Source: an archaeon (lineage in GTDB: Archaea; Iainarchaeota; Iainarchaeia; Iainarchaeales; CSSED10-239). From it: DNA of 13,230 nucleotides. A program made the position numbers and the translations under genes. The DNA is taken from positions 1 to 13,230 of the forward strand of contig JBAWVI010000017.1 of NCBI GenBank assembly GCA_037147375.1, given 5' to 3'. Positions 1 to 10,415 of this stretch are shown piece by piece. Within the stretch, counting starts at the first letter, position 1. Each line of letters begins with the position of its first letter. The notes under the pieces are model-generated. The model worked only from the letters and a program-made list of their open reading frames with translations. It had not been told where the DNA came from and did no database searches.

Positions 1-2530
1 TCTTATCTTTTGATTTTTCGCTTGATTGAACTTGCTTGAATACTTTTAAGATTTCAGCAGTATCTAAATTAAATTTAGCAATTACTGTTTTATCATGTGT
101 GTTAACTATATTATCAAGCTCGTATTCTGCTATTCTGTGCTTTAAGGAATCAATTTCTTTTTTTTGTTCCTTCCATTCCTTAAAAAAGTTACCTAAAGTT
201 TTAGCAAGCTCGCTCTTGTTTACACATAAAACATCTGATGAATTTTCAAGATGTTTTTCTTGCTCTCTAATATACTCAAGTGCTGATTTTTGAGTTGTGT
301 AAAATATTCTTTCAACTCCATCTTGAACACTTGTTCTTTTAATTATTTTAAAAATACCAATATCTTTAATATCATGTAAATGAAGACCAGCACATGCTTG
401 AACATCTATGTTTGGTATTTCAATTATGCTTAAATAGTTTCCTGGAATTGCTCCACCTTGGTAAAGCCTGAATCCATATCTCTTTTCAGCTTCATCTTTT
501 GGTAACTCAAAGATATTTACTTTACTTCCATCAAACACCCATTCATTAACTTGATCTTCAATTAAATCAAGTTCATCTTTTGTAATCGGTTTATAGTGTG
601 TAATATCAAGATGAGATTCAAGAACATCCTTGCTTGCTCCTGCTTGCCAGATGTGCTGACCAAGAACTTTCTTTGCAGCTGCATTTAGAAGATGTGCACC
701 TGTATGCATGCATCTTAATTGCTTTTGACGTGAATCATCAACTAAACAGATTACTGGATGTCCAACATTAATTGCTTTCTTTAAGTTTTCAATAAAATGA
801 AGAATCTTTCCTTCATAATTATAAACTTCTGTTACTTGATAAGCACCATTAATTGTTCCAAGATCAAATGTTTGTCCTCCACCTTCTGGATAGAAAACTG
901 TTTTATCAAGTACTATAAGTTTCTCTGATGCATAAAGAACCTTACTTGTGCATTCTGTTTTATTATCATAATATAATTTAATTGTGTTTGGAAGAAGCTT
1001 GATTGCTTCCTTATTTTCCTTTTCAAGAAGCTTTTGAATAACACTTATGTCCTTTGCAGCCTTCCCAGTTAAATTACTTTCAGCTATTGCTCCAAAGTAA
1101 TCTGCAGGAAGTTCTATTTTCTTATGAAGCTTTTCTGCTGCATCTTCAATTTGTTCCTTTGTTATTCCATCACTCTTGTACATTGTTACAAAATCTTTTG
1201 TATCGAGCTTCTTTCCAGATGAAAGAATGCTTGCAAGCTTACTAACAGCTTTATCCTTGTTTTGTAAATATTTTTTCTTTTCTTCGTCTAAGACATCACA
1301 AGCAGTCTTAAGTCCTTTTGATAAACTTGGATCAAAATCCTTAAGTGAATGAACATGCTCTTCAAATATTTTATTAAAATCAAGCTTGAAATCATGTGTC
1401 TGATCAATATCAAACAATCTTCTAGCAAGAATTCTCAAATTATATCCTCCACCAGAATTACTTGGCAAGAGACCATCAGTTCCTGTATAAAGTAAAGTCT
1501 TTGTGTGATCACAAACTGCATAAAGAGCATGAACAGGATCAAGTTTCTTGAATAATTCATCTCTTGACTGTCCAAGTTTCTTTGCAATAATTTCTTGAGA
1601 TTTTTTAAGGTCTGCTACTTCGTCTGCATTTAATTCTCCAGAGAGTTTATAAAATTCAGTTAATAACTTATCATCAAACTTAACTCCAGTATGTTTTTTT
1701 AAATACTTGAGTACATCTGCAAAAGTAATATCATAACTTGTTGGTGTTCCGTTTGTGTACCATGCAAGTCTTTCAAACCCAGCACCCATATCAATAACTG
1801 GTTTCTTTAATTGTTCATATTTTCCTTTACCCTGATCTTGATATTGCATGAAAACACAATTACCAAGCTCAACACCATTTGCAAAATATTCCATGCATGG
1901 TCCAAAGTATCCTCCACCTTCCCAAACATCTTCAAAGAAAACTAAATCATCTTCTTTAACTCCAATAACTTTAGTTAGATATTCATGGTCTAAAGAAAGA
2001 GCTTCTTCTTTCCAATAAGGTTTCTTTGGATCTGTGTTAAATGCGTGTTGACCAAACATAACAAAGGTTGTATAATGTGTTCCAGTAACTCCTACATTTG
2101 AAATATCTCCAAACCTAATAGATGTTTGTGGAACAATAAGTGGATCTGCAGGTGGTTTAACTTCTCCATTAACAACATATGGTTGAAAATCTATGATTGA
2201 TGCATTAGTAAAATATAAATCGTTTCTCCATCTTGGAATAACTGGATATCTTTTAATTGATTCATGTCCATTCTTCTTAAAGAACTTTTCAATTTCATGC
2301 CAAGTTTCTTGATAAGTATATCCTTTTGTTTTATGTCCAATAAAATCACGAGATTGACAACTAGATTCAGCACAATATTCTCTATTAGTGTTAGTCCAAA
2401 ATGGACGCTTACACTTTTTACAAATCTTTCTTTCATACCCTAAGTTAGTAAGAGCCTTAACCTTATAATGATCTTGCCAGTTCTTTTCAAACATTGGTCT
2501 AACTTGTTTTTTAAGTTCAGTTTCTGCCAT
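1..2530 (-). CDS. alaS: Alanyl-tRNA synthetase, archaeal type. The start is complete and the C-terminal end runs off the left edge of the window (843 codons visible).
   Basis: Absent from the supplied ORF track, presumably because it has no stop inside the window. I checked every minus-strand triplet of the frame starting at 2530 down to position 2 and found no stop. The frame is closed just upstream by TAG at 2543-2545. Translation starts MAETELKKQVRPMFEKNWQDHYKVKALTNLGYERKICKKCKRPFWT (archaeal AlaRS N-terminal Cys cluster). It continues through class II core segments (FTNASIIDFQPY, GPCMEYF, IDMGAGFERLAWY) and the editing-domain metal motifs HxxxH (MHTGAHLL) and CxxxH (CAGLH). Confidence 0.92.
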   Translation of the reverse strand, partial: MAETELKKQVRPMFEKNWQDHYKVKALTNLGYERKICKKCKRPFWTNTNREYCAESSCQSRDFIGHKTKGYTYQETWHEIEKFFKKNGHESIKRYPVIPRWRNDLYFTNASIIDFQPYVVNGEVKPPADPLIVPQTSIRFGDISNVGVTGTHYTTFVMFGQHAFNTDPKKPYWKEEALSLDHEYLTKVIGVKEDDLVFFEDVWEGGGYFGPCMEYFANGVELGNCVFMQYQDQGKGKYEQLKKPVIDMGAGFERLAWYTNGTPTSYDITFADVLKYLKKHTGVKFDDKLLTEFYKLSGELNADEVADLKKSQEIIAKKLGQSRDELFKKLDPVHALYAVCDHTKTLLYTGTDGLLPSNSGGGYNLRILARRLFDIDQTHDFKLDFNKIFEEHVHSLKDFDPSLSKGLKTACDVLDEEKKKYLQNKDKAVSKLASILSSGKKLDTKDFVTMYKSDGITKEQIEDAAEKLHKKIELPADYFGAIAESNLTGKAAKDISVIQKLLEKENKEAIKLLPNTIKLYYDNKTECTSKVLYASEKLIVLDKTVFYPEGGGQTFDLGTINGAYQVTEVYNYEGKILHFIENLKKAINVGHPVICLVDDSRQKQLRCMHTGAHLLNAAAKKVLGQHIWQAGASKDVLESHLDITHYKPITKDELDLIEDQVNEWVFDGSKVNIFELPKDEAEKRYGFRLYQGGAIPGNYLSIIEIPNIDVQACAGLHLHDIKDIGIFKIIKRTSVQDGVERIFYTTQKSALEYIREQEKHLENSSDVLCVNKSELAKTLGNFFKEWKEQKKEIDSLKHRIAEYELDNIVNTHDKTVIAKFNLDTAEILKVFKQVQSSEKSKDK

Positions 2531-2538
2531 AAATATCA

Positions 2539-2571
2539 ATACCTATAAATATATCGAACATACCTATAAAT
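2539..2571 (-). promoter_or_regulatory. Two copies of a 12-bp direct repeat (plus strand ATACCTATAAAT, minus strand ATTTATAGGTAT) spaced 21 bp apart just upstream of alaS. Candidate tandem TATA-box promoter elements.
   Basis: Exact repeat at 2539-2550 and 2560-2571. Read on the minus strand each contains TTTATA. The proximal copy ends 9 nt upstream of the alaS ATG (2530), so it sits close to the start codon. This would fit a short or absent leader. Confidence 0.35.
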
Positions 2572-2619
2572 TATACTTAATATATAAGATAAATAAGTAT
2601 TTAAAGATATATTTTAGGG

Positions 2620-3645
2620 TTAATCATATCTTATTGGCTTAGCTTTTACTTTCTTTCTTAATTTGTTTAATAGATACTCTTTGTTTTCATCTACAATTTG
2701 AGAAATTTCTTTTTTTCTTTCCATTAATAAATCATAAATGAAGATACTAAATTTATTATAATCTTTAGAATTTTGTAATCTTTCAAGAAGGTTAATATAC
2801 CTGTTTCTGTTATTAAGATTAATTATTACTCTAGGAAATCCATTATCCATAAGAATAAGATTAAGTAGTTCTCTTCCTGTTCTTCCATTTCCATCAGAAA
2901 AAGGATGAACACTTTCAAAGAAGATGTGTAGATAACTTGAAAGTTCGACAGGATAAACCTGGTCTTTATTATTTGAATAATAATCCATAAATTCATTCAT
3001 AAGTTCTTGAACCCTACTTGCATTAGGTGGGAGATAACTTGAACCAGTAAGATATACAGGCTCTGTTCTATATTTTCCTGGATGTTTCTCTTCAAATGTA
3101 TACAGAACTTCTTTATGAATATTTTTAATTAATTTTTCAGTTAATTTTTGTTTTTTTGAAAATATTTTCTGTTTAACGTTCTTTAAATTTATTATTTCTT
3201 GAATTTCGTATACTTGTTTTCCTTCAATTGCTATTCCTTTATCCATTACCAATGCAGTTTCCAATAATGATAAAGAATTTCCTTCAACTGATGCACTTCC
3301 TTGTGCAAATCTTACATATTCATCTTTATCAAAAGATTTAAATCCCTCTTTGAAATATCTTTTAAATAATAGATAATCATATCTTAGTTTTTCAAGTTCT
3401 ATTATTTCCATAGTGGATAATACTTCTGGTTTTCTTTTTTGAAGAACAATCTTTGATGCTTCAATCCCTATTTTATTTCTAAGATCAATAAATGCTTTAT
3501 CTAATGCTTCTTTTGATTTTGGGTCTGATAAGTACACACTTATCTTCCTTCTATCACCATATAAGTTGATAGTTTCCTCAAGATAATAATATTTTTTATC
3601 AGAAATAATTCTTTTGTTTATGAACACAATGTAATTAACCCTCAA
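2620..3645 (-). CDS. Fic-domain protein (Fic-1) with the canonical AMPylase-type motif and an N-terminal inhibitory-helix motif.
   Basis: 341 aa ORF. Core Fic motif HPFSDGNGRTGR matches HxFx(D/E)GNGRxxR. The upstream segment SASVEGN matches the (S/T)xxxE(G/N) auto-inhibitory motif of class II Fic proteins. The annotated start is TTG at 3645. A GTG at 3627 is an alternative, and there is no ATG in the first ~78 codons. Confidence 0.85.
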   Translation of the reverse strand: MRVNYIVFINKRIISDKKYYYLEETINLYGDRRKISVYLSDPKSKEALDKAFIDLRNKIGIEASKIVLQKRKPEVLSTMEIIELEKLRYDYLLFKRYFKEGFKSFDKDEYVRFAQGSASVEGNSLSLLETALVMDKGIAIEGKQVYEIQEIINLKNVKQKIFSKKQKLTEKLIKNIHKEVLYTFEEKHPGKYRTEPVYLTGSSYLPPNASRVQELMNEFMDYYSNNKDQVYPVELSSYLHIFFESVHPFSDGNGRTGRELLNLILMDNGFPRVIINLNNRNRYINLLERLQNSKDYNKFSIFIYDLLMERKKEISQIVDENKEYLLNKLRKKVKAKPIRYD

Positions 3646-3688
3646 AATGTTTAAAAATAGATGTTTTTAGATAATTGAGGGTTAATTA
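3632..3688. promoter_or_regulatory. Perfect 14-bp inverted repeat (TAATTAACCCTCAA, 29-nt spacer, TTGAGGGTTAATTA) spanning the Fic-1 start codon and upstream region.
   Basis: Arms at 3632-3645 and 3675-3688 are exact reverse complements. The spacer is AT-rich with a TATA-like run (minus strand CTATTTTTAAACA). The proximal arm contains the TTG start and the first four codons of Fic-1. The element begins 16 nt after the stop of the upstream Cys-rich gene. Confidence 0.5.
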
Positions 3689-3703
3689 ATTTTAAATTAA
3701 TAA

Positions 3704-4042
3704 TTATATATTACCAGGAACTGTAAGTAAAGGTTCACATTTATTATTTACACAATTAATTCCTTGCAATTCCATGCAACTATAAACACAACCTTTTATC
3801 CCTCCATTGTACTTAGATATCAGGCTACTTATCCTTATTTCTTCATTTTTATTTATTAATATAGAACACCCAAATGGGCATGAGGGCCCTACAGATATAC
3901 AGTCCTCTTTTACAGAACAATAGTTTGCTTTGATGATTTCTTTACTAACTTGTTTCTCTGTTGGACTAAATTTATATAAGATAAACCCTATGCTTAAAAC
4001 AAGGATTGTTACTATTAATAAAATAATAAATTTTTTCTTCAT
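3704..4042 (-). CDS. Small membrane-anchored 8-Cys protein, paralog 1 of 4 (P1), unknown function.
   Basis: 112 aa. MKKK followed by a ~20-residue hydrophobic segment, then the scaffold C-x5-C-x6-CPFGC-x25-C-x3-C-x7-C-x4-C. GGAG Shine-Dalgarno-like sequence (AAGGAGAGAGAATT) directly before the ATG. Conserved with three neighbouring paralogs. Confidence 0.8.
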   Translation of the reverse strand: MKKKFIILLIVTILVLSIGFILYKFSPTEKQVSKEIIKANYCSVKEDCISVGPSCPFGCSILINKNEEIRISSLISKYNGGIKGCVYSCMELQGINCVNNKCEPLLTVPGNI

Positions 4043-4067
4043 AATTCTCTCTCCTTTATTATTATAA

Positions 4068-4391
4068 TTAATCCAAATTCCAAATACATTTTCCAGTTAT
4101 ACACCCAAAATTTTTTATTGGTCCGCAATCATAAGCACAACCCTCATTATTTACATAATAGCGTGTAATTAATTTTTGTATTCTTGTTTCTTCATTTTTA
4201 TTAATTAATATATTACATCCAAATGGGCAAGCACCTAATTTTGCACTACAATCCTCTTTTACAGAACAATAGTTTGCTTTGATTATTTCTTTATTAATTT
4301 GCTTTTCTGTTGGACTAAATGCGTATAGGATAAATCCTATAATTAAAATAAGGATAGTCGCAATTAACACAAAAATAAATTTCTTTTTCAT
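4068..4391 (-). CDS. Small membrane-anchored 8-Cys protein, paralog 2 of 4 (P2), unknown function.
   Basis: 107 aa with the same architecture and Cys spacing as P1. About 58 of the first 78 residues are identical to P1 by my hand alignment, and the C-terminal third diverges. AAGGAGAT lies upstream of the ATG. Only 25 nt separate it from P1. Confidence 0.8.
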   Translation of the reverse strand: MKKKFIFVLIATILILIIGFILYAFSPTEKQINKEIIKANYCSVKEDCSAKLGACPFGCNILINKNEETRIQKLITRYYVNNEGCAYDCGPIKNFGCITGKCIWNLD

Positions 4392-4420
4392 TTTATTTCA
4401 CTATCTCCTTAACCTTGTTT

Positions 4421-4438
4421 ATATCCACAAGAACTTCT
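4421..4438 (-). repeat. Shortest remnant of the hisS 3' end (18-bp core), between P3 and P2.
   Basis: ATATCCACAAGAACTTCT matches hisS 6407-6424 at 17 of 18 positions. A further fragment, ATTTCACT at 4395-4402, may correspond to CTTTCACT of hisS, with the P2 Shine-Dalgarno sequence inserted between them. The flanking sequence 4439-4465 parallels 4879-4905. Confidence 0.6.
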
Positions 4439-4464
4439 AATTAATAGTTAATAGATTATTTAAC

Positions 4465-4797
4465 CTAATTTTGAGGAACACACTTATTATCTACACAAGC
4501 TATACCTTTTAACTGAAGACAGTTATAAACACAAGTACTAAAACTAAGTTTGTTTTTATGGTATTCAGAAATAAGGTCACGTATTCTTGTTTCTTCATTT
4601 TTATTTATTAATATCGTACATCCAAATGGACAAGATCCACCTATATGTGTACAATCATCTGATATGGAACAAAAATTTGCATTTTTTATTTCCTGATTTA
4701 CTTTTTTTTCTGATGGACCTGTACAAAATAAAAATATTAAAACACCAATTATAATAACTATTGTTGCGATTAACAAAAATACACATTTCTTTTTCAT
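4465..4797 (-). CDS. Small membrane-anchored 8-Cys protein, paralog 3 of 4 (P3), unknown function.
   Basis: 110 aa. C-x5-C-x6-CPFGC-x28-C-x3-C-x7-C-x4-C. AAGGAGAATAAGT lies before the ATG. It ends at TAG where P4 has TGG, and both then read GTT AAA TAA. Confidence 0.8.
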   Translation of the reverse strand: MKKKCVFLLIATIVIIIGVLIFLFCTGPSEKKVNQEIKNANFCSISDDCTHIGGSCPFGCTILINKNEETRIRDLISEYHKNKLSFSTCVYNCLQLKGIACVDNKCVPQN

Positions 4798-4844
4798 ACT
4801 TATTCTCCTTTTAATTTTTATAAATCTTTATTATTATTTATTAC

Positions 4845-4878
4845 ATCTTTCACTTTATCAATATCTACAAGAATTTCT
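4845..4878 (-). repeat. Remnant copy of the 3' end of hisS (about 34 bp), between P4 and P3.
   Basis: 4845-4878 matches 6391-6424 at 32 of 34 positions (ATCTTTCACTTTATC.ATATCTACAAGAA.TTCT). Confidence 0.8.
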
Positions 4879-4895
4879 AATTGATGATTAATACA

Positions 4896-5252
4896 TTATT
4901 TAACCCAATGTTGAGGAACGCATTTATTATCTACACAATTTATACTTTTAAACTGAGGACGGTCATAAACAGGACAATCATAAACACAAGTACTAAGACT
5001 AAGTTTATTTTTATGATATTCAAAAATCAGATCACGTATTCTTGTTTCTTCATTTTTATTTATTAATATTGTACATCCAAATGGACAAGATCCATCTATC
5101 TGTAGACAATCATCTGATATGAAACAAAAATTTGCATTTTTTATTTCTTGATTCACTCTTTTTTCTGATGGACCTGTACAAAATAAAAATATTAAAACAC
5201 TAATTATAATAACTATAACAGCAATTAGTAAAAATACACATTTCTTTTTCAT
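4896..5252 (-). CDS. Small membrane-anchored 8-Cys protein, paralog 4 of 4 (P4), unknown function.
   Basis: 118 aa. 83 of the first 93 residues are identical to P3 by hand alignment. The loop between Cys6 and Cys7 is 12 residues (PVYDRPQFKSIN) against 7 in P1-P3. AAGGGAGATAAATT lies before the ATG. Confidence 0.8.
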   Translation of the reverse strand: MKKKCVFLLIAVIVIIISVLIFLFCTGPSEKRVNQEIKNANFCFISDDCLQIDGSCPFGCTILINKNEETRIRDLIFEYHKNKLSLSTCVYDCPVYDRPQFKSINCVDNKCVPQHWVK

Positions 5253-5298
5253 AATTTATCTCCCTTAAATTTTTATTGATAATTTTTATTATTTATTA

Positions 5299-5360
5299 TA
5301 TCTTTCACTTTATCAATAGACACAAGAACTTCTTCTCCACTCTTCATGTTCTTTATTTGT
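5299..5360 (-). repeat. Remnant copy of the 3' end of hisS (longest copy, about 62 bp), between Fic-2 and P4.
   Basis: A hand alignment of 5299-5360 against 6390-6451 gives 52 of 62 identical positions. Translated on the minus strand it reads IKNMKSGEEVLVSIDKVKDI, against the HisRS C-terminus IKNMKSGEEVLVDIDKVKDILK. It overlaps the Fic-2 stop codon (5353-5355). Confidence 0.85.
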
Positions 5361-6294
5361 TTATAAAATATTTTACTTGTCCTAAATATTGTTTATAACT
5401 AAATTCAGCAAATTCTTTTGGATTATTTTTTTCTACAGCACTAATTAATGATTTAAAATACTCTCCTTTTTTATCTGAAATATTTAACATTGGAAAGTTA
5501 GAATCAACCAATACTTTATTAAAAATTAATCTACAAATTCTTTTATTTCCATCAAGAAAAGGATGTATCATATATAACTTATAATGAGAGATAACTGCTT
5601 TTTCAAGTGGATTCAATTCAGTTGTATTATACCAATCAACAAAATTAATTAATTGCTTAGTGATATCTATATAATTTGGAGGTTGATAATTAAGTTCTCT
5701 TCCAAGAGGATGTTTTTGATCTGTTTGGATCAAATGAACTGGTCTTACTCTAAACATACCTGGTGTTTTTGTCTCAAACTCAGCCATTGTTGTTCTGTGT
5801 AATTTTTTTAAAAAATCAATTGTTAACTCTATATTACTATTTGAAACAAGGTTAACTGCATCAATCATATTCTTACAAATAATTTCTTCCCTACTTAAAT
5901 TAGATTTATTTTTATATGCATTTTTTACATCTTGAATATTTATATCTACATCTTCTGTTGTTAGTGTGGTTAAGGTAAATAAGATTATAGAATCTATTTT
6001 AAACTGCTTCTGCTTAATAGGGGATAAGGTATTATATTTTTTTATAAAAAAATTTCTTAAAATTATGGTTTTAATCACATCTTCTAAATTATACAGATTA
6101 GATGTATAATGTTCTTGAGAAACCTTGTAAATCACGTTATCATAAAAAGTTAATATTAGTTTTTTAAGTTCATTAGAAGATGGTTTTTTAAGTCCTATAT
6201 ATTTACTAAAATGAACTTGTTTATCTAAAACCCTAAATTTTAATTCTAAGTAATAATATATTTTATTATTTACTTTCTTAACATCTAATTTCAT
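5353..6294 (-). CDS. Fic-domain protein (Fic-2), a divergent paralog of Fic-1 with a Doc-like NKR variant of the core motif.
   Basis: 313 aa. Core motif HPFLDGNKRICR has Lys in place of the second Gly. The N-terminal KIYYYLE segment and the TPGMFR segment align with KKYYYLEE and HPGKYR of Fic-1. The position equivalent to the inhibitory motif reads TLTTED (Glu kept, G/N replaced by Asp). Confidence 0.8.
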   Translation of the reverse strand: MKLDVKKVNNKIYYYLELKFRVLDKQVHFSKYIGLKKPSSNELKKLILTFYDNVIYKVSQEHYTSNLYNLEDVIKTIILRNFFIKKYNTLSPIKQKQFKIDSIILFTLTTLTTEDVDINIQDVKNAYKNKSNLSREEIICKNMIDAVNLVSNSNIELTIDFLKKLHRTTMAEFETKTPGMFRVRPVHLIQTDQKHPLGRELNYQPPNYIDITKQLINFVDWYNTTELNPLEKAVISHYKLYMIHPFLDGNKRICRLIFNKVLVDSNFPMLNISDKKGEYFKSLISAVEKNNPKEFAEFSYKQYLGQVKYFINK

Positions 6295-6299
6295 AGATA

Positions 6300-6375
6300 A
6301 TTAGGGCAACAAACAGTTTATAAAATGTTGCCCTAATACTTAGGGCAACAAATTAATTTACAAAAGATGCCCTAA
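6300..6375. promoter_or_regulatory. Pair of inverted repeats built from four TTAGGGCA half-sites between the hisS stop and the Fic-2 start. Candidate operator/promoter for Fic-2, terminator for hisS, or both.
   Basis: IR1 is ATTAGGGCAACA (6300-6311), a 14-nt spacer, then TGTTGCCCTAAT (6326-6337), perfect over 12 bp. Its spacer contains TTTATAAAA. IR2 is TTAGGGCA (6340-6347), a 20-nt spacer, then TGCCCTAA (6368-6375). The 13-nt direct repeat TTAGGGCAACAAA occurs at 6301 and at 6340. IR1 ends 6 nt from the Fic-2 ATG, and its TATA-like spacer is centred about 25-30 nt upstream of that ATG. Confidence 0.5.
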
Positions 6376-6378
6376 ATT

Positions 6379-7677
6379 TTATTTTAGAATATCTTTCACT
6401 TTATCTATATCTACAAGAACTTCTTCTCCGGACTTCATGTTCTTGATCTTTATCTTATTTTGCTTAACTTCATCTTCACCTAAGAGACCAACAAATGGAA
6501 TTTCTGACTTATTTGCGAAATCCATGTTCTTTCCAATTGCTCTTCCTAAGAGATCTACCATAGTTTTTATTCCTTGGCTTCTTAGTGTTTGTGTTATCTC
6601 TATTGCTTGCTTCTCTGTTTTAATTGGAATAATATAAAGATCAGCTGTTGTTTCCTTAACCATTCCATCTCTTGCTTTAATTATCTCCATAATTGGCTCA
6701 AGTCCAAATGCAACTCCAACTGCAGGATAAACCCTATTCTCATCTTTTAGATATTTACCTATCATCTTATCCCATCTTCCACCACCAGCAATTGAAACTG
6801 GAAGAATAGATTCTTCTTTTAAGAAAACTTCAAAGATTGGGCCTGTATAATATCCAAGACCTCTTGCAAGGGAAGGAAGGAAAACATATTCTGTATTAAA
6901 TTTATTTAGATAATTAAAAAGTTCAGTTAATTCTTTTATTCCATCTGTTTCTCCTATAACTTTTTTAATATTATTTAGCTTTTCTTGATTGTTTCCTTTA
7001 ACTAAAAGAATATCAAGAATCTTATTTATCTTATCCTCTGATATTTCTTTTTCAAGAAGTTCTTTAGTTACTCCAACTCTACCAACCTTCTTTAGCTTAT
7101 CAATTGTAATAATTGTTGTTGTTTGATAATCTTCTGGAATTTCTACAAAACTTAGAATATCTGAAAGAAGTTTTCTTGAAGAAACTTCTATGTTTACATC
7201 AAGCTTAAGTTCTTTAAACACATCTGAGACAAGAGCTAGTATTTCTGCATCTGCAATCATTCCGCTTGCACCAACAGTGTCCACATCACACTGGTAGAAC
7301 TCTCTATATCTCCCTGCTTTTATAGGTCCATCACGAAAAACAGGGCCTATCTGATATCTTTTAAATGGTAATCTAGTTTGAGGGTTCATTCCTATGTATC
7401 TTGCTAGAGCAAATGTAAACTCATATCTTAACCCCAAATCTCTATCTCCTTGGTCTTTAAATCTATATATTTCAGAGATAGCATCGCTAGCTTCTCCAGC
7501 TCCAAACTTAGCTTCCAAGATATCTAATCTTTCAACAGTTGGAGTCTCAAGAGGAGAGAAAGCATATATTTCAAAAACATTCTTTATCTTTGCAATAACA
7601 TAATCTCTAAGTATTTTTTCAGCAGGAGAGAAATCTCTAAATCCTTTAGCTAAATCAAGTTCAAAATCTTTTTCCAT
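6379..7677 (-). CDS. hisS: Histidyl-tRNA synthetase.
   Basis: 432 aa. Class II motif 2 region FRDGPIKAGRYREFYQCDVD, the HisRS-specific LARGLGYYTGPIFE, and a C-terminal anticodon-binding domain (DLYIIPI...GIKTMVDL...IPFVGLLGEDE). Confidence 0.93.
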   Translation of the reverse strand: MEKDFELDLAKGFRDFSPAEKILRDYVIAKIKNVFEIYAFSPLETPTVERLDILEAKFGAGEASDAISEIYRFKDQGDRDLGLRYEFTFALARYIGMNPQTRLPFKRYQIGPVFRDGPIKAGRYREFYQCDVDTVGASGMIADAEILALVSDVFKELKLDVNIEVSSRKLLSDILSFVEIPEDYQTTTIITIDKLKKVGRVGVTKELLEKEISEDKINKILDILLVKGNNQEKLNNIKKVIGETDGIKELTELFNYLNKFNTEYVFLPSLARGLGYYTGPIFEVFLKEESILPVSIAGGGRWDKMIGKYLKDENRVYPAVGVAFGLEPIMEIIKARDGMVKETTADLYIIPIKTEKQAIEITQTLRSQGIKTMVDLLGRAIGKNMDFANKSEIPFVGLLGEDEVKQNKIKIKNMKSGEEVLVDIDKVKDILK

Positions 7678-7743: not shown

Positions 7744-7817
7744 GGGTCCGAACCGGGATTCGAACCCGGGTCCTAAGATCCACAGTCTTAGATGCTAACC
7801 ACTACACAACTCGGACC
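7744..7817 (-). tRNA. tRNA-His (anticodon GUG) with genome-encoded G-1.
   Basis: The minus strand folds by hand into a cloverleaf. G-1, then acceptor GTCCGAG/TTCGGAC, D stem GTGT/GCAT with a GG loop, anticodon stem TAAGA/TCTTA with loop CTGTGGA (GTG), T arm CCGGG-TTCGAAT-CCCGG, and C73 opposite G-1. No encoded CCA. Confidence 0.9.
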
Positions 7818-7832
7818 ATTAGTATTAACTAT

Positions 7833-7952
7833 TTAATTTGTTATTACCACCTTATCATTATCTACTCTGATAGATACGTTATCAAAGAAACCTAACGATT
7901 TTCTAACAGAAGATGGTATTGTTATTCTATTCTTGGAATCAACAACGATGGG
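7833..7952 (-). pseudogene. Second AbrB/SpoVT-like domain in the +1 frame relative to 7939-8094, with no start codon of its own. Indicates a frame-disrupted or recoded double-AbrB gene.
   Basis: The frame opens after TAG (7953-7955) and reads PIVVDSKNRITIPSSVRKSLGFFDNVSIRVDNDKVVITN, then stop. The VDSKNRITIP segment repeats the AbrB signature. There is no ATG, GTG or TTG before the motif and no Shine-Dalgarno sequence. It overlaps the end of the upstream ORF by 14 nt. Confidence 0.5.
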
Positions 7953-8094
7953 CTAATCTATAATTAGTTGATATAATTAACTTAGAATTAATTAAATCAA
8001 AATCGTAACTTAAACTAGAGTTATCTTTAAACAAGTTAATTATTTGTTTTGATAATCTAATTCTTCCTTTATCATCAATCTTTGTTTGTTCCAT
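7939..8094 (-). CDS. AbrB/SpoVT-type (swapped-hairpin) DNA-binding domain protein, 51 aa as it stands. It appears to be the first half of a two-domain gene.
   Basis: MEQTKIDDKGRIRLSKQIINLFKDNSSLSYDFDLINSKLIISTNYRLAHRC. The xDxKGRIxLxKxI signature is typical of AbrB/MazE/SpoVT domains. AAAGGAGTG lies 12 nt upstream of the ATG. Too short for the supplied ORF track. Confidence 0.6.
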   Translation of the reverse strand: MEQTKIDDKGRIRLSKQIINLFKDNSSLSYDFDLINSKLIISTNYRLAHRC

Positions 8095-8173: not shown

Positions 8174-9397
8174 TTAACCAAAGAATATTGGTCTTTGGCT
8201 AATTAACTTTGATACTGGTAGTGAACGATATGGCATACCATTACAAATTTTTTTTATTTCCTTTTCTAATTCTTCTTTTCCCATTTCTTTTTTAATTCCG
8301 TTTTCTCTTACGTTTACCATATATTTTCCAGAAGATATTTCTTTATCTCCAATCACAATAACATACGGCACCCACTCCTTGCTTGCTTTAACAATTTTCT
8401 TTCCAAGACTATCCTCACTATCATCCAAATCATATCTAATCCCTTCTAAATGAATAGATTTGCAATAATCAACTTGAGCTTGAGACACAGGTATGATTCT
8501 AACTTGAGAAGGGCATAACCAAAGTGGTAACACTGGTTTTTCTTTTTTTAAGGATTCTTCAAATATTGAATACATCCATCTTTCAATACTTCCAATACTT
8601 GAATGGCAGATAATACATCCTTTCTTGCTACCATCATTATCCACATAGTTAATTCCATATATTCCTGCATCTTTAATATCCAATTGAACAGATGATAGTT
8701 GCAAGTTACCTCCAACACTATCTATTCCTTGGAATTCATGCTTAACAACCCAATAGTGCTTCATATCAGATAATAGTTCTATGAAAGCTGGCTTATTAGA
8801 ATATTTAACTAATTCTAATATCTTGTTTTTATGCTCGTTATAAAAGCTTTCAACAACTCTAAAGACAATAGCATATTTTACTCCTACTTCATTAGCAAGA
8901 TCTGAATAATTTCTATAAAGATTTTGATATTCGTCCCATCCTTCTTCTACATCCTTACAAAAACTATGAATGTCTGGCATATGAAATGATCTTAGTCTCT
9001 TAAGTCCAGATAGTTCACCATGCTTTTCATACCTAAAGCTTTTTGAAAACTCATAAACTCTTATTGGAAGCATTTTATAACTAAAGTTTGCATCTTGCAT
9101 AATCTTAAATAAACCAAAATCTCCTGCAAATCTTAAGATATATTTTTCATTATCATTATCAGGCACCTTTACAATATAATGTCTCTCATGAAATGATCCA
9201 GCTTGCTCTTGAATTTCTTTATCATTCCAGTTATATATTATTGGAGAATCAATTTGTAAAGATTTCAATCTATTTACTGCAATCTCATATGCCCAATCTT
9301 TTAATAAATCAAAAATCAACTTTCCTTTTGGATACATTCTAAAATGCCCAGAATCACTTGAAGATTCATAATCAACTAATTCATGTTGTTGCATCAT
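8174..9397 (-). CDS. thrS: Threonyl-tRNA synthetase, archaeal type: catalytic core plus anticodon-binding domain (the main body of a disrupted gene).
   Basis: 407 aa. HELVDYESSSDSGHFRMYPKG, FRYEKHGELSGLKRLRSFHMPDIH (class II motif 2 region), CHSSIGSIERWMYS (motif 3 region), and C-terminal PLWLCPSQVRIIPVS...VPYVIVIGDKE (anticodon-binding domain). This frame is open upstream to 9433 and there reads RDNLEKHPPSIKMM, with no earlier start codon and no Shine-Dalgarno sequence. Confidence 0.9.
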   Translation of the reverse strand: MMQQHELVDYESSSDSGHFRMYPKGKLIFDLLKDWAYEIAVNRLKSLQIDSPIIYNWNDKEIQEQAGSFHERHYIVKVPDNDNEKYILRFAGDFGLFKIMQDANFSYKMLPIRVYEFSKSFRYEKHGELSGLKRLRSFHMPDIHSFCKDVEEGWDEYQNLYRNYSDLANEVGVKYAIVFRVVESFYNEHKNKILELVKYSNKPAFIELLSDMKHYWVVKHEFQGIDSVGGNLQLSSVQLDIKDAGIYGINYVDNDGSKKGCIICHSSIGSIERWMYSIFEESLKKEKPVLPLWLCPSQVRIIPVSQAQVDYCKSIHLEGIRYDLDDSEDSLGKKIVKASKEWVPYVIVIGDKEISSGKYMVNVRENGIKKEMGKEELEKEIKKICNGMPYRSLPVSKLISQRPIFFG

Positions 9398-9398
9398 T

Positions 9399-9599
9399 TT
9401 AATTGAAGGTGGGTGCTTCTCTAGGTTGTCCCTTTATTTCCTCTGATAAAATATATGCTTTAAGTTCAGGATTATTAATCTTTGCTAGATCTTCTTTATT
9501 ATCTTTATTAAATTCCATCTCTGACCCATCAGGACTTAAAATAATTGATTTATGCATTACACTTTTATTTATTTCATCTCTATTTTTTATTGAATTCAT
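9399..9599 (-). CDS. thrS: N-terminal 66-codon segment of thrS, in a different frame from the body (a +1 shift is needed to join them).
   Basis: A strong Shine-Dalgarno sequence (AAGGAGAGATAAATT) lies directly before ATG 9599. The ORF ends at TAA, one nt before the ATGATG of the 407-aa ORF. Together they would give about 470 aa, the size of an editing-domain-less ThrRS. Confidence 0.65.
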   Translation of the reverse strand: MNSIKNRDEINKSVMHKSIILSPDGSEMEFNKDNKEDLAKINNPELKAYILSEEIKGQPREAPTFN

Positions 9600-9967: not shown

Positions 9968-10189
9968 CTATTTTAAATACTCTAAAAATTCTTCTTTTGT
10001 AAGCTTAGAAACTTTAATAATCTGTAAAACAGTTCCAATCTTTAAAACTTTGTGATTTGGAACAACAATTAAATCCCCTTCTTGATTTTTAAGAATAATA
10101 TGACTGCCTTTTTGTCTAATTATATGATAATCTAATTTATTTAATACAAAAAGTATATCCTTTACAGATATATTCTTTAATTCAGACAT
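9968..10189 (-). CDS. hicA: HicA-family toxin (mRNA interferase).
   Basis: 73 aa. RQKGSHIILKN...VVPNHKVLKIGTVLQIIK matches the HicA signature (GSH ... P.H ... GT...I.K). Its start overlaps the stop of the upstream hicB by 8 nt (AATGTCTGA). Confidence 0.85.
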   Translation of the reverse strand: MSELKNISVKDILFVLNKLDYHIIRQKGSHIILKNQEGDLIVVPNHKVLKIGTVLQIIKVSKLTKEEFLEYLK

Positions 10190-10415
10190 TAATAGGCACT
10201 TCTGTTTGTTCTAAATAAACTGAAGATAACAATTCTTTTAATTTTTCTTTATCAATTTCATTGATGTACAAATCTATAGCTTCTGTAATGTTTTGCATTG
10301 CTTCTTCTTTAGTATCGCCTTGTGATATACATCCTGGTAATTGAGGAACATAAACTGTATATCCACCTTCTATCTGTTTTTCAAAAATTACATCTATCTT
10401 CATAACATCACACAT
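10182..10415 (-). CDS. hicB: HicB-family antitoxin (UPF0150-like, N-terminal domain only).
   Basis: FEKQIEGGYTVYVPQLPGCISQGDTKEEAMQNITEAIDLYI is the typical HicB partial RNase H-like fold signature. The start is either ATG 10415 or ATG 10403 (MKIDVIF...). There is no appended RHH/HTH domain. Confidence 0.8.
   Translation of the reverse strand: MCDVMKIDVIFEKQIEGGYTVYVPQLPGCISQGDTKEEAMQNITEAIDLYINEIDKEKLKELLSSVYLEQTEVPINV

What the first reader, a model, noticed from the sequence alone, without database searches (positions are those of the whole stretch)
2620..6378. Fic, four tandem 8-Cys membrane-anchored paralogs, then Fic: a candidate undescribed module between alaS and hisS
Two core translation genes (alaS, hisS) flank a 3.7 kb segment. 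It contains only two divergent Fic-domain genes bracketing four small co-directional paralogs, separated by gaps of 25-100 nt. Each small gene has its own GGAG ribosome-binding site. The Fic genes instead sit directly behind palindrome-embedded TATA-like boxes. I know of no described system pairing Fic enzymes with small Cys-rich anchored or secreted proteins. These are not the classical class I antitoxins, since none carries the (S/T)xxxE(G/N) helix. Possible readings are a surface or host-interaction cassette whose components are Fic substrates or partners, a toxin/immunity-like or defence-like module, or two unrelated accessory genes gathered at one hotspot. The symmetric bracketing and the shared insertion scars argue that the block travels or grows as a unit.
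Basis: partly seen in the sequence, partly recalled or inferred. Interest (0 to 1): 0.8.

Follow-up and report, generated by a model that had tools for sequence, protein, structure and literature searches.

The report
Gene pile-up behind hisS, not module
The two Fic enzymes and four small cysteine-rich membrane proteins between hisS and alaS are real genes, but related genomes show they accumulated one by one at a variable spot behind hisS, so they do not form a new functional system.

Summary
On the minus strand the order is hisS, Fic2, P4, P3, P2, P1, Fic1, alaS. The four P genes have GGAG ribosome-binding sites, and both Fic genes sit behind palindromes that enclose a TATA box.

The "module" reading is not supported.
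- Close relatives, syntenic for more than 15 kb, carry hisS-Fic1-alaS with nothing in between. One relative carries hisS-P-Fic1-alaS.
- None of 19 other genomic contexts of the P family contains a Fic gene. None of about 85 other Fic-bearing loci contains a P gene.
- The "insertion scars" are copies of the last 45-80 nt of hisS. Two of them share one junction, which marks tandem segmental duplication of a [hisS tail + P] unit.
- A 56-nt hisS repeat brackets Fic2. The same arrangement, with a 24-nt repeat, occurs in a more distant archaeon.

Fic1 is a canonical class II Fic enzyme (SASVEG, HPFSDGNGRTGR). Fic2 belongs to a conserved clade found mostly in DPANN archaea, with Lys in the second-glycine position (HPFLDGNKR).

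P is a membrane-anchored, 8-Cys domain predicted to face outward. Its family has about 1,700 sequence clusters and no Pfam or PDB match.

The locus is ordinary accessory-gene accretion, with a few minor new details.

The parts
1..2531 (-). alaS (alanyl-tRNA synthetase), 5' part; it runs off the window. It forms the conserved right-hand border of the variable region.
   Evidence: The ORF reading is. The orthologous 893-897 aa alaS carries tRNA-synt_2c and tRNA_SAD in L001, L033 and L036. Nucleotide identity to L001 is 93%.
2620..3627 (-). Fic1, the resident class II Fic enzyme (335 aa from GTG at 3627; the ORF extends to TTG at 3645). It has a canonical HPFSDGNGRTGR motif and an N-terminal inhibitory motif SASVEG.
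   Evidence: Pfam Fic E = 1.6e-21. The motifs are shown and are invariant across 25 homologs. Orthologs 84-90% identical sit between hisS and alaS in L001 and L033-L039.
3632..3688 (-). Fic1 promoter/operator: 14-nt inverted arms (TAATTAACCCTCAA / TTGAGGGTTAATTA) enclosing a TATA-like ATTTTTAAA. The right arm ends 4 nt before the start codon, which suggests a leaderless mRNA.
   Evidence: The same architecture is seen in L001, L033, L036 and in a 44%-identical family member, L040.
3704..4042 (-). P1, 112 aa: an N-terminal membrane anchor plus an 8-Cys domain predicted to lie outside the cell.
4068..4391 (-). P2, 107 aa, a paralog of P1 (duplication unit about 349 nt, with no hisS relic between them).
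   Evidence: families D1 and D4. dN/dS for P1/P2 is 0.34.
4392..4437 (-). hisS-tail relic 3 (GAAGTTCTTGTGG...GAAATAAA), directly before P2. It supplies the AAGGAG ribosome-binding site of P2.
   Evidence: (family D3). It shares the junction ...AATTA|GAAGTTCTTGT with relic 2.
4465..4797 (-). P3, 110 aa, a recent duplicate of P4 (90% nt identity over 300 nt).
   Evidence: family D2. dS for P3/P4 is 0.28 and dN/dS is 0.26. The AlphaFold2 model has pLDDT 89.
4818..4877 (-). hisS-tail relic 2 (the long form, which would read EILVDIDKVKDVINNNKDL*), between P4 and P3.
   Evidence: 33-nt match with 2 mismatches, 0 expected by chance. Alignment.
4896..5252 (-). P4, 118 aa, the ortholog of the single P gene of relative L001.
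   Evidence: dS to the L001 P gene is 0.18, the lowest of all pairs. It follows a long-form hisS tail, as in L001.
5273..5354 (-). hisS-tail relic 1, the former (L001-like, long-form) 3' end of hisS, now displaced downstream of Fic2. Its 56-nt core at 5298-5353 is a direct repeat of 6389-6444.
   Evidence: Repeat score 35, against 17 or less in controls. It is 88% identical to the L001 hisS end. It has Ser codon AGT, as in L001 and L033 (AGT/AGC), whereas the live hisS end has TCC, as in L036.
5353..6294 (-). Fic2, 313 aa, a member of a conserved Fic clade found mostly in DPANN archaea. It has Lys in the second-glycine position (HPFLDGNKRICR) and an inhibitory-helix-like motif TLTTED. It is a later arrival at this locus.
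   Evidence: Pfam Fic E = 9.7e-18. 237 homologs, about 47-53% identical over the full length. Model pLDDT is 93.6 and the best PDB matches are FICD, BT_2513 and SoFic. It is absent from L001 and L033-L039.
6301..6375 (-). Fic2 promoter/operator: two 36-nt units of TTAGGGCA(A/T)C-N16-GTTGCCCTAA. The unit nearer the gene encloses TTTTATAAA and ends 6 nt before the ATG.
   Evidence: (family D12). Orthologous units in L014, L120 and L016 show compensatory changes in the two arms.
6379..7677 (-). hisS (histidyl-tRNA synthetase). Its last roughly 45-80 nt are the sequence copied three times downstream.
   Evidence: Pfam tRNA-synt_His and HGTP_anticodon..

Best explanation
The 3.7-kb segment is a variable, accretion-prone spot immediately downstream of hisS in a small, AT-rich archaeal genome. 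Judging by its homologs, the genome is DPANN-like. The segment holds three independent kinds of gene and is not one system.

1. **Fic1** is the resident gene. It is a self-inhibited class II Fic enzyme, and AMP transfer is the predicted activity. It is transcribed from its own leaderless promoter, whose TATA box lies between two inverted arms. That layout suggests a dimeric repressor, possibly Fic1 itself (inferred).

2. **The P genes** encode small proteins with an N-terminal membrane anchor and an 8-Cys domain predicted to lie outside the cell. One copy was placed right after the hisS stop codon and is read using a Shine-Dalgarno site. It was probably transcribed with hisS, or from a promoter inside the hisS 3' end (inferred). 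A segment running from inside the hisS 3' end to just past P was then duplicated head to tail, more than once. This left a hisS-tail relic in front of P3 and P2. P1/P2 arose from a separate, tail-less duplication. All four copies are kept by purifying selection.

3. **Fic2** has its own double operator/promoter. It was added between hisS and the array by a recombination event that brought a second hisS 3' end with it. The old hisS end was displaced downstream as relic 1.

Shown: gene content, the repeats, the synteny of relatives, and the lack of Fic-P association elsewhere. Inferred: the order and mechanism of the events, autoregulation, and the biochemical activities.
For: **Synteny.**
- L036-L039 and L033-L035 have hisS-Fic1-alaS. 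The hisS-Fic1 spacer there is 65-71 nt in L033 and L035-L039 and holds only the Fic1 palindrome. L034 has the same spacer sequence, but its hisS ORF is called 48 nt longer. L036 and L037 match the window's gene order for more than 15 kb.
- L001 has hisS-P-Fic1-alaS.

**No association elsewhere.**
- tblastn with Fic1 and Fic2, plus a Fic motif scan, found no Fic in any P locus. The one exception is a Doc-like motif about 4.7 kb away in L023.
- A P-family HMM run against six-frame ORFs of all 122 loci found P only in loci fetched through P, plus L001 and L002.
- Neighbours of P in other genomes show no consistent partner.

**Duplication.**
- Repeat families D1-D5 have periods of 349, 403-440 and 455 nt.
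- An identical junction, AATTA|GAA(G/A)TTCTTGT, precedes relics 2 and 3.
- dN/dS is 0.2-0.5 for all paralog pairs. P4 is closest to the L001 P gene (dS 0.18).

**Fic2 arrival.**
- A 56-nt direct repeat flanks it.
- The two copies differ by synonymous changes, including a TCC-to-AGT Ser codon switch. Each version matches a different relative.
- A 70%-identical Fic2 ortholog in L014 also follows hisS and is bracketed by a 24-nt hisS-tail repeat.

**Self-sufficiency of the Fic genes.** Inhibitory motifs lie within both proteins. Every one of 10 Fic upstream regions has a strong palindrome around the TATA box, against 12 of 153 control regions.

**Composition.** The segment has lower GC (0.23-0.26) than hisS and alaS (0.32).
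Against: - P and Fic1 are adjacent and co-directional in two genomes (the window and L001), so a lineage-specific functional link cannot be formally excluded.
- The direction of change is not resolved. Relatives could have lost P or Fic2 by recombination between hisS-tail repeats rather than never having had them.
- P1/P2 differ from P3/P4 by dS of about 1, far more than the window differs from L001. The array is therefore either older than that split, with later collapse in L001, or partly imported.
- No transcript data support co-transcription or autoregulation.
- Identity along hisS shows no sharp recombination breakpoint. The 'imported hisS end' idea rests on a few sites only.
Confidence: 0.75

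Rival explanations
1. Defence-island reading. Fic1 and Fic2 would be SoFic-like, single-gene abortive-infection toxins. The spot behind hisS would be a small defence or accessory island. The P proteins would be unrelated surface proteins, or they would alter the cell surface against viruses or hosts.
For: - Both Fic proteins hit the PADLOC SoFic model (E = 3.5e-35 and 1.9e-24) and the PDC-S04 models.
- A BsaWI-type restriction enzyme follows the Fic2 ortholog in L014.
- A type I HsdR helicase lies near the two Fic2 copies in L016.
- A HicAB pair lies 3.6 kb away in the window.
- SoFic is reported as an anti-phage AMPylating toxin (PMC12249575).
Against: - The NCBIfam SoFic equivalog cut-off of 550 bits is far from met: 41 and 37 bits.
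- The profile match covers only positions 61-283 of 361, so the SoFic C-terminal domain is missing.
- Fic1 is fixed between hisS and alaS in all relatives found.
- The Fic2 clade is unusually conserved, with 68% mean column identity. That fits a housekeeping regulator better than fast-evolving defence genes.
- No homologs were found in viral contigs.
Confidence: 0.12
2. Cassette-capture reading. The hisS 3' end would act as a recurrent attachment site. Small single-gene cassettes (Fic2, P), each carrying a copy of the hisS tail, would excise as circles by tail-to-tail recombination and re-integrate by a Campbell-type crossover. Cargo would stack with the newest item next to hisS.
For: - Every unit from Fic2 to P2 is preceded by a hisS-tail copy.
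- The copies flanking Fic2 look like alleles from different lineages.
- In L014, Fic2 has independently been placed at the same site with a different repeat length (24 nt against 56 nt).
- In both genomes the tail copy starts at the Fic2 stop codon.
Against: - No integrase, transposase or other recombinase is present in the 13-kb window.
- Relics 2 and 3 share one identical junction, which is the signature of local tandem duplication rather than independent integrations.
- Fic2 orthologs in L016 (second copy) and L120 have no flanking repeats.
- P-family genes elsewhere are single and lie in unrelated contexts.
Confidence: 0.1
3. Fic enzymes and P proteins would form one functional module, with P acting as substrate, partner or immunity protein.
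For: The genes are co-directional and tightly spaced. P-Fic1 adjacency occurs in two related genomes. A small antitoxin protein next to a class II Fic is known for SoFic (AS1, 47 aa; PMC12249575).
Against: - None of 19 other P contexts has a Fic gene, and none of about 85 other Fic loci has P.
- Relatives keep Fic1 without P.
- P has only about four cytoplasmic residues (MKKK) before its membrane helix. Its conserved Cys-rich domain is predicted to lie outside the cell, whereas the Fic proteins have no signal sequence.
- No inhibitory motif is present in P.
Confidence: 0.04

Closest known systems
Class II Fic AMP transferases (SoFic, BT_2513, human FICD/HYPE)
   Same: Both proteins have the Fic fold. 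Fic2's model matches FICD, 3cuc, 3eqx and 8cil at Foldseek probability 1.00. Fic1 has the full HxFx(D/E)GNGRxxR signature and an N-terminal SxxxEG inhibitory motif, as defined in PMC3667792.
   Different: - Both have an N-terminal extension of about 35-100 aa with no Pfam match. In the Fic2 model this region begins with a three-stranded beta-sheet; Fic1 was not modelled.
- Both lack the C-terminal domain of SoFic.
- Fic2 has Lys instead of the second Gly, and TxxxED instead of (S/T)xxxE(G/N).
Doc (Phd-Doc) kinase
   Same: Fic2 shares Doc's Lys at the second-glycine (G2) position of the signature loop. In Doc this residue prevents canonical ATP binding and goes with kinase activity (PMC8401265).
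   Different: Fic2 is 313 aa, has an internal inhibitory-type helix, and keeps the last Arg of the signature. It has no Phd-like antitoxin gene and no hit to the DOC_P1 model.
SoFic with its small downstream antitoxin AS1
   Same: A class II-type Fic gene lies next to a small ORF (PMC12249575).
   Different: AS1 is a 47-aa protein reported to counteract SoFic toxicity inside E. coli cells. P is 107-118 aa, membrane-anchored, Cys-rich and predicted to face outward. P is dispensable in relatives and unlinked to Fic in every other genome examined.
Tandem segmental duplication (gene amplification by unequal crossing-over)
   Same: The units lie head to tail with periods of 349-455 nt. They share a junction, diverge in steps, and vary in copy number (0, 1 or 4) among close relatives.
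   Different: The duplicated unit starts inside the coding 3' end of an essential gene. Each copy therefore drags a hisS-tail relic with it, and one relic now supplies a ribosome-binding site.
Genomic islands integrated at the 3' end of a gene, with duplication of that end (att-type direct repeats)
   Same: Direct repeats of the target gene's 3' end flank Fic2. The gene-proximal copy restores the hisS reading frame.
   Different: The insert is only about 1.04 kb, carries a single gene, and has no integrase. Nothing shows mobility.

Membership tests
Fic/Fido superfamily | Match to Pfam PF02661 above the gathering score, and a Fic fold | tested here: met
   Fic1 scores 77.4 bits and Fic2 65.2 bits against a cut-off of 24. 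The Fic2 model matches solved Fic structures.
Canonical AMPylating Fic (signature HxFx(D/E)GNGRxxR, PMC3667792) | Complete signature motif | tested here: met
   Fic1 has HPFSDGNGRTGR, and the motif is invariant in 25 homologs. This row applies to Fic1 only.
Canonical AMPylating Fic (signature HxFx(D/E)GNGRxxR, PMC3667792) | Complete signature motif (tested on Fic2) | tested here: not met
   Fic2 has HPFLDGNKRICR. The Lys at the second Gly is invariant in 32 clade members.
Class II Fic (intramolecular N-terminal inhibitory helix) | (S/T)xxxE(G/N) N-terminal to the Fic core, in the same polypeptide | tested here: met
   Fic1 has SASVEG at residues 111-116, with E and G invariant. Fic2 has TLTTED at the equivalent place: the Glu is kept but G/N is replaced by Asp, so it only partly conforms.
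Class I FicTA toxin-antitoxin | A small adjacent protein carrying the (S/T)xxxE(G/N) helix | tested here: not met
   No such motif occurs in P1-P4. The P proteins are membrane-anchored with a domain predicted to face outward.
SoFic defence protein (NCBIfam NF046030 equivalog; PADLOC SoFic) | Full-length match above the curated cut-off, including the C-terminal domain | tested here: not met
   NCBIfam scores are 41.4 and 36.7 bits against a cut-off of 550. PADLOC hits are significant but cover only profile positions 61-283 and 26-259 of 361.
SoFic defence protein | Protection against viruses through abortive infection | not testable with these tools
   This needs an experiment.
Doc kinase | Lys at the G2 position, a small single-domain toxin and an upstream Phd antitoxin | tested here: not met
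   The Lys is present in Fic2. However, Fic2 is 313 aa, there is no Phd-like gene, and it gives no TIGR01550 hit.
Integron-like or site-specific cassette array | An integrase or recombinase gene next to the array | tested here: not met
   No such ORF or Pfam match occurs in the 13-kb window.
Tandem segmental duplication array | Head-to-tail units sharing the same novel junction, with copy number varying among relatives | tested here: met
   The junction AATTA|GAA(G/A)TTCTTGT occurs twice. Periods are 349, 403-440 and 455 nt. Relatives carry 0, 1 or 4 copies.
Conserved Fic-P gene neighbourhood (the proposed module) | P-family genes enriched next to Fic genes across genomes | tested here: not met
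   None of 19 independent P contexts has Fic, and none of about 85 Fic loci has P. The only other genome with the adjacency is the close relative represented by L001 and the short contig L002.

The most novel reading that the evidence does not exclude
The hisS 3' end may serve as a recurrent, recombinase-independent capture and amplification site. Under this reading, single-gene cargo (Fic2, P) that carries a copy of the hisS tail is stacked by homologous or Campbell-type recombination. It would operate in at least two DPANN-like lineages and would act as a minimal cassette system for accessory genes in very small genomes.

A second possibility that is not excluded concerns the Fic2 clade. It may be an autoregulated, Doc-like kinase whose N-terminal beta-sheet domain reads the co-varying palindromes around its own TATA box.
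Probability: 0.12. Interest if true: 0.55.

Novelty: new member of a known kind. Interest (0 to 1): 0.3.

Why it matters
The proposed Fic + Cys-rich-protein system does not exist as a system, so it should not be followed up as one.

Three modest points remain of interest:
- A widespread 8-Cys domain, predicted to lie outside the cell, has no Pfam entry and no structural relative. The family has about 1,700 sequence clusters at 50% identity in bacteria and archaea.
- Two Fic clades found mostly in DPANN archaea have promoters framed by inverted repeats. The repeat arms co-vary between orthologs, which gives a ready-made case for studying archaeal operator-repressor pairs. One clade has a Doc-like Lys in the active-site loop.
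- The locus is a clean natural example of how duplication that starts inside an essential gene's 3' end builds a gene array and leaves datable relics.

Tried and rejected
- **Metagenome scan with the Fic2 clade alignment.** It returned only generic Fic genes at 21-40% identity, because the pattern IHPFLDGN is too general. It served only as a set of about 80 Fic loci lacking P, and it yielded one Fic1-family member (L040).
- **Viral contig scans for Fic2 and P.** Nothing was found.
- **Identifying the P domain.** The searches were Pfam, NCBIfam, PADLOC and PHROGs, a PDB sequence profile, Foldseek against PDB (best E = 1) and Pfam on multi-domain members (a single DUF333 fusion). No family or fold was assigned.
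- **General 'mobile Fic2 cassette' idea.** Flanking direct repeats are significant only for the two hisS-linked copies. They are marginal or absent for L016 and L120, and no tRNA targets are present. The idea was rejected as a general property of the clade.
- **Recombination breakpoint in hisS.** Identity to the three relatives is 79-98% per 100-nt block throughout, with no clear step. The result is inconclusive.
- **Positive selection on the P paralogs.** All pairs have dN/dS below 1; the highest is 0.84, for the P4 versus L001 ectodomain, based on few sites. There is no evidence of diversifying selection.
- **Pfam scan of the N-terminal extensions of both Fic proteins.** Nothing was significant.
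- **The sigma-70 promoter and terminator scanner** was not used, because the promoters here are of the archaeal TATA type.

Full report
**1. What is in the sequence**

All genes of the window lie on the minus strand. Read 5' to 3' on that strand, the order is:
- tRNA-His(GTG) at 7744-7816
- hisS at 6379-7677
- Fic2 at 5353-6294
- P4 at 4896-5252, P3 at 4465-4797, P2 at 4068-4391 and P1 at 3704-4042
- Fic1 at 2620-3645 (probable start GTG at 3627, which gives the 335-aa product that public annotation also uses)
- alaS, from about 2531 to the window edge

Both large ORFs match Pfam Fic well above threshold. They share only 30% identity over 145 residues.

The four small ORFs are clear paralogs. 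Each has GGAG 11-17 nt before its ATG.

**2. The 'scars' are copies of the hisS 3' end**

Repeat analysis (family D3) and alignment show that the last 45-80 nt of hisS recur three times: immediately after Fic2 (5273-5354), after P4 (4818-4877) and after P3 (4392-4437). A 33-nt probe from the hisS end finds the second relic with two mismatches, where no match is expected by chance.

Relics 2 and 3 are each preceded by the same novel junction...AATTA|GAA(G/A)TTCTTGT. At this junction, sequence from just downstream of a P gene is joined to the interior of the hisS tail. A shared junction is the signature of a single illegitimate event followed by tandem re-duplication of a [hisS tail + ribosome-binding site + P] unit of 440-455 nt. 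P1 and P2 form a separate, tail-less 349-nt duplication (families D1 and D4).

**3. Relatives show how the locus was built**

Three groups of related contigs were recovered.
- L036-L039 (Fic1 85% identical) and L033-L035 (Fic1 90%) have hisS-Fic1-alaS. The called hisS-Fic1 gap is 65-71 nt in L033 and L035-L039 and contains only the Fic1 palindrome and promoter. L034 has the same spacer sequence as L033, but its hisS ORF is called 48 nt longer, leaving a 23-nt gap.
- L036 and L037 share the window's gene order for more than 15 kb: HU, DUF1846, HicBA, a 66-aa ORF, thrS, a 51-aa ORF, hisS, Fic1, alaS.
- L001 is the closest relative (alaS 93% nt identity). It has hisS, one P gene, Fic1 and alaS.

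Fic1 is therefore the constant resident. P occurs in 0, 1 or 4 copies, and Fic2 is present only in the window.

In L001, hisS ends with a longer C-terminus (...KDVINNKKDL*) followed 20 nt later by P. Relics 1 and 2 of the window have this same long form. P4 is the closest paralog to the L001 P gene (dS 0.18). So relic 1 + P4 in the window is orthologous to hisS end + P in L001.

All paralog pairs have dN/dS of 0.2-0.5 over their full length, so all four copies are maintained genes. P1/P2 differ from P3/P4 by dS of about 1, which is much older than the split from L001. Either the array is old and collapsed in L001, or part of it was imported. I cannot decide between these.

**4. Fic2 is a later, separate arrival**

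A 56-nt direct repeat of the hisS end brackets Fic2 (6389-6444 and 5298-5353). Its repeat score is 35, against 17 or less for mismatched-locus and shuffled controls.

The two copies differ mostly by synonymous changes. One is a three-base Ser codon switch, TCC in the live hisS end and AGT in the relic. The live end resembles L036 (TCC, short C-terminus). The relic resembles L001 and L033 (AGT/AGC). This suggests that both evolved as working hisS ends in different lineages, and that Fic2 came in together with its own hisS end by recombination. It would not then be a local duplication that later diverged.

The support is a handful of sites. The identity profile along hisS shows no sharp breakpoint, so I treat this as a reasonable inference, not a demonstration.

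The closest Fic2 ortholog (70% identical, L014 and L015) also lies directly after hisS, in an archaeon whose hisS C-terminus is only 62% identical. It is bracketed by a 24-nt repeat of that hisS end, and a BsaWI-type restriction enzyme gene follows it. The hisS end has thus been a landing or recombination point at least twice.

Other Fic2 orthologs sit in unrelated contexts. Flanking repeats are absent for L120 and the second L016 copy, and only marginal for the first L016 copy.

**5. Test of the module hypothesis**

The P family was searched with a profile. That gave 27 close hits and, in a filter-free search of 1.84 billion representatives, 1,735 clusters at E ≤ 1e-3 and 748 at E ≤ 1e-10. 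Members occur in candidate phyla radiation bacteria, Myxococcota, Binatia, Deltaproteobacteria and several archaea.

I examined 19 independent genomic contexts.
- tblastn with both Fic proteins, plus a Fic-motif scan, found no Fic gene in any of them. The only hit was a Doc-like motif about 4.7 kb from P in L023.
- Immediate neighbours are heterogeneous: HEAT-repeat protein, metallophosphatase, alaS, Dus (twice), GGDEF, transglutaminase, Ser/Thr kinases, PMSR and a P-type ATPase.
- Conversely, a P-family HMM found no P gene in about 85 loci fetched through Fic genes.

Topology also argues against a direct partnership. P has four cytoplasmic residues (MKKK), one membrane helix, and then the conserved Cys-rich domain (model pLDDT 89). 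Many homologs have signal or lipoprotein-type leaders. The Fic proteins have no signal sequence.

**6. What the parts are**

*Fic1.* It has the complete AMPylation signature HPFSDGNGRTGR and an N-terminal SASVEG. E, G and the signature are invariant in 25 homologs. This is the definition of a class II, self-inhibited Fic enzyme (PMC3667792).

*Fic2.* It belongs to a tightly conserved clade of about 313 aa. The hits that carry a source name are nearly all from DPANN groups (Ainarchaeum, Diapherotrites, Aenigmarchaeota, Micrarchaeota). The search returned 237 hits, and mean column identity in a 32-sequence alignment is 68%.
- Its signature is HPFLDGNKRICR.
- A side chain at this second-glycine position is what distinguishes Doc. 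There it blocks canonical ATP binding and goes with kinase activity (PMC8401265). AMP transfer by Fic2 is therefore doubtful and phosphotransfer is possible; this is an inference.
- It keeps a Glu in an inhibitory-helix-like FTLTTLTTEDV segment.
- Its model (pLDDT 93.6) superposes on FICD, BT_2513, SoFic and Coxiella Fic2. It adds an N-terminal three-stranded sheet with no Pfam match.

*Defence models.* Both proteins hit the PADLOC SoFic model. They fall far below the NCBIfam SoFic equivalog cut-off and lack the SoFic C-terminal domain.

*P domain.* It has no Pfam, NCBIfam, PADLOC, PHROG, PDB-sequence or PDB-fold match. Its eight invariant Cys come in four close pairs (Cx5C, CPFGC, Cx3C, Cx4C). 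That spacing is compatible with four disulfides or with two metal sites.

**7. The palindromes**

Both Fic genes start 4-6 nt after the right arm of an inverted repeat that encloses a TATA-like box. The layout suggests leaderless archaeal transcripts and a dimeric repressor that competes with TBP/TFB; both points are inferences.

The architecture recurs upstream of every Fic1- and Fic2-family gene I could inspect. All 10 of 10 upstream regions had it, of which about 7 are independent. Among non-Fic genes in the same loci, 12 of 153 upstream regions scored as high.

In the Fic2 clade the arms change in a compensatory way:

| Locus | Left arm | Right arm |
|---|---|---|
| Window | GGGCAAC | GTTGCCC |
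| L014 | GGGTAAC | GTTACCC |
| L120 | GGCTAAC | GTTAGCC |
| L016, second copy (one mismatch) | GGCTTAC | GTCAGCC |

That pattern argues for a co-evolving protein-DNA pair. The Fic protein itself is the simplest candidate, but this is untested.

**8. Verdict**

The anatomy is real, but the 'module' is a chance stack. It consists of a resident class II Fic gene, a tandemly amplified small surface-protein gene, and a second Fic gene added by recombination at the hisS end.

Each element belongs to a known kind: Fic enzymes, tandem duplication, and an uncharacterised secreted-type domain. The points worth keeping are the unannotated 8-Cys domain family, the Fic clades with co-varying operators, and the hisS-tail relics as a record of locus growth.

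Interest is low to moderate, at 0.3.

Noticed in passing
window 7744-7816 (-): A tRNA-His (anticodon GTG) gene lies 66 nt upstream of hisS and points the same way, so the cognate tRNA sits next to its synthetase.
   Followed up: no
window 8174-9599 (-); L036 4445-5870: The threonyl-tRNA synthetase gene encodes only the catalytic and anticodon-binding parts (407 aa). A separate 66-aa ORF ends 1 nt before it and has no Pfam match. The same pair (66 + 407 aa) is conserved in L036-L038.
   Followed up: partly
window 9968-10415 (-): A HicB-like antitoxin (77 aa) and a HicA toxin (73 aa) overlap each other. The pair is conserved in L036-L038.
   Followed up: partly
L001 790-830: In the relative L001, the P gene has ATGAAAAAAAATG where the window's P3 and P4 have ATGAAAAAGAAATG. 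One base is missing in the A-run, which puts the MKKK start out of frame, so the gene was called from a downstream GTG. This could be an assembly error or a slippage-prone tract.
   Followed up: no
L014 1231-1300 and 1401-2237: After the Fic2 ortholog and the hisS-tail copy there is a third operator-type unit (TAGGGTAAC-N16-GTTACCCTAA around TTTTTATAA). About 100 nt further on lies a BsaWI-type restriction endonuclease gene. A Fic2-type operator may therefore control a neighbouring gene, or it may be the remnant of a lost second Fic2 copy.
   Followed up: partly
L016 5001-5939 (+) and 9603-10541 (-): One Ainarchaeum contig carries two Fic2-clade paralogs within 5 kb, near a type I restriction HsdR helicase and RadC. 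Their operator arm sequences differ (GTGTGGTCAGAC... versus TTAGGCTTAC...).
   Followed up: partly
L020 4989-7188; L021 4926-6325; L022 1812-5678: In another archaeon, a P-family gene lies about 500 nt from the 3' end of a convergent alaS. In two other genomes, P lies next to a dihydrouridine synthase gene. This is probably coincidence in gene-dense genomes, but tRNA-related neighbours recur.
   Followed up: no
P0187 (417 aa) and other long P-family members, e.g. P0152, P0225, P0262: The 8-Cys domain also occurs inside longer proteins of 200-580 aa. Of ten long members scanned, only one showed a Pfam domain above its gathering score (DUF333, in P0187); P0171 gave only a weak sub-threshold HisKA_7TM hit and the other eight gave none. 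In L022 the domain lies in a 665-aa ORF with no Pfam match.
   Followed up: partly
window 7939-8094 (-): A 51-aa ORF (MEQTKIDDKGRIRLSKQ...) lies between thrS and tRNA-His. It is conserved as a 51-55 aa ORF in L036-L038 and has no Pfam match.
   Followed up: no
window 2500-6300: The whole variable segment, including the resident Fic1, has lower GC (0.23-0.26) than the flanking synthetase genes (0.31-0.32).
   Followed up: partly
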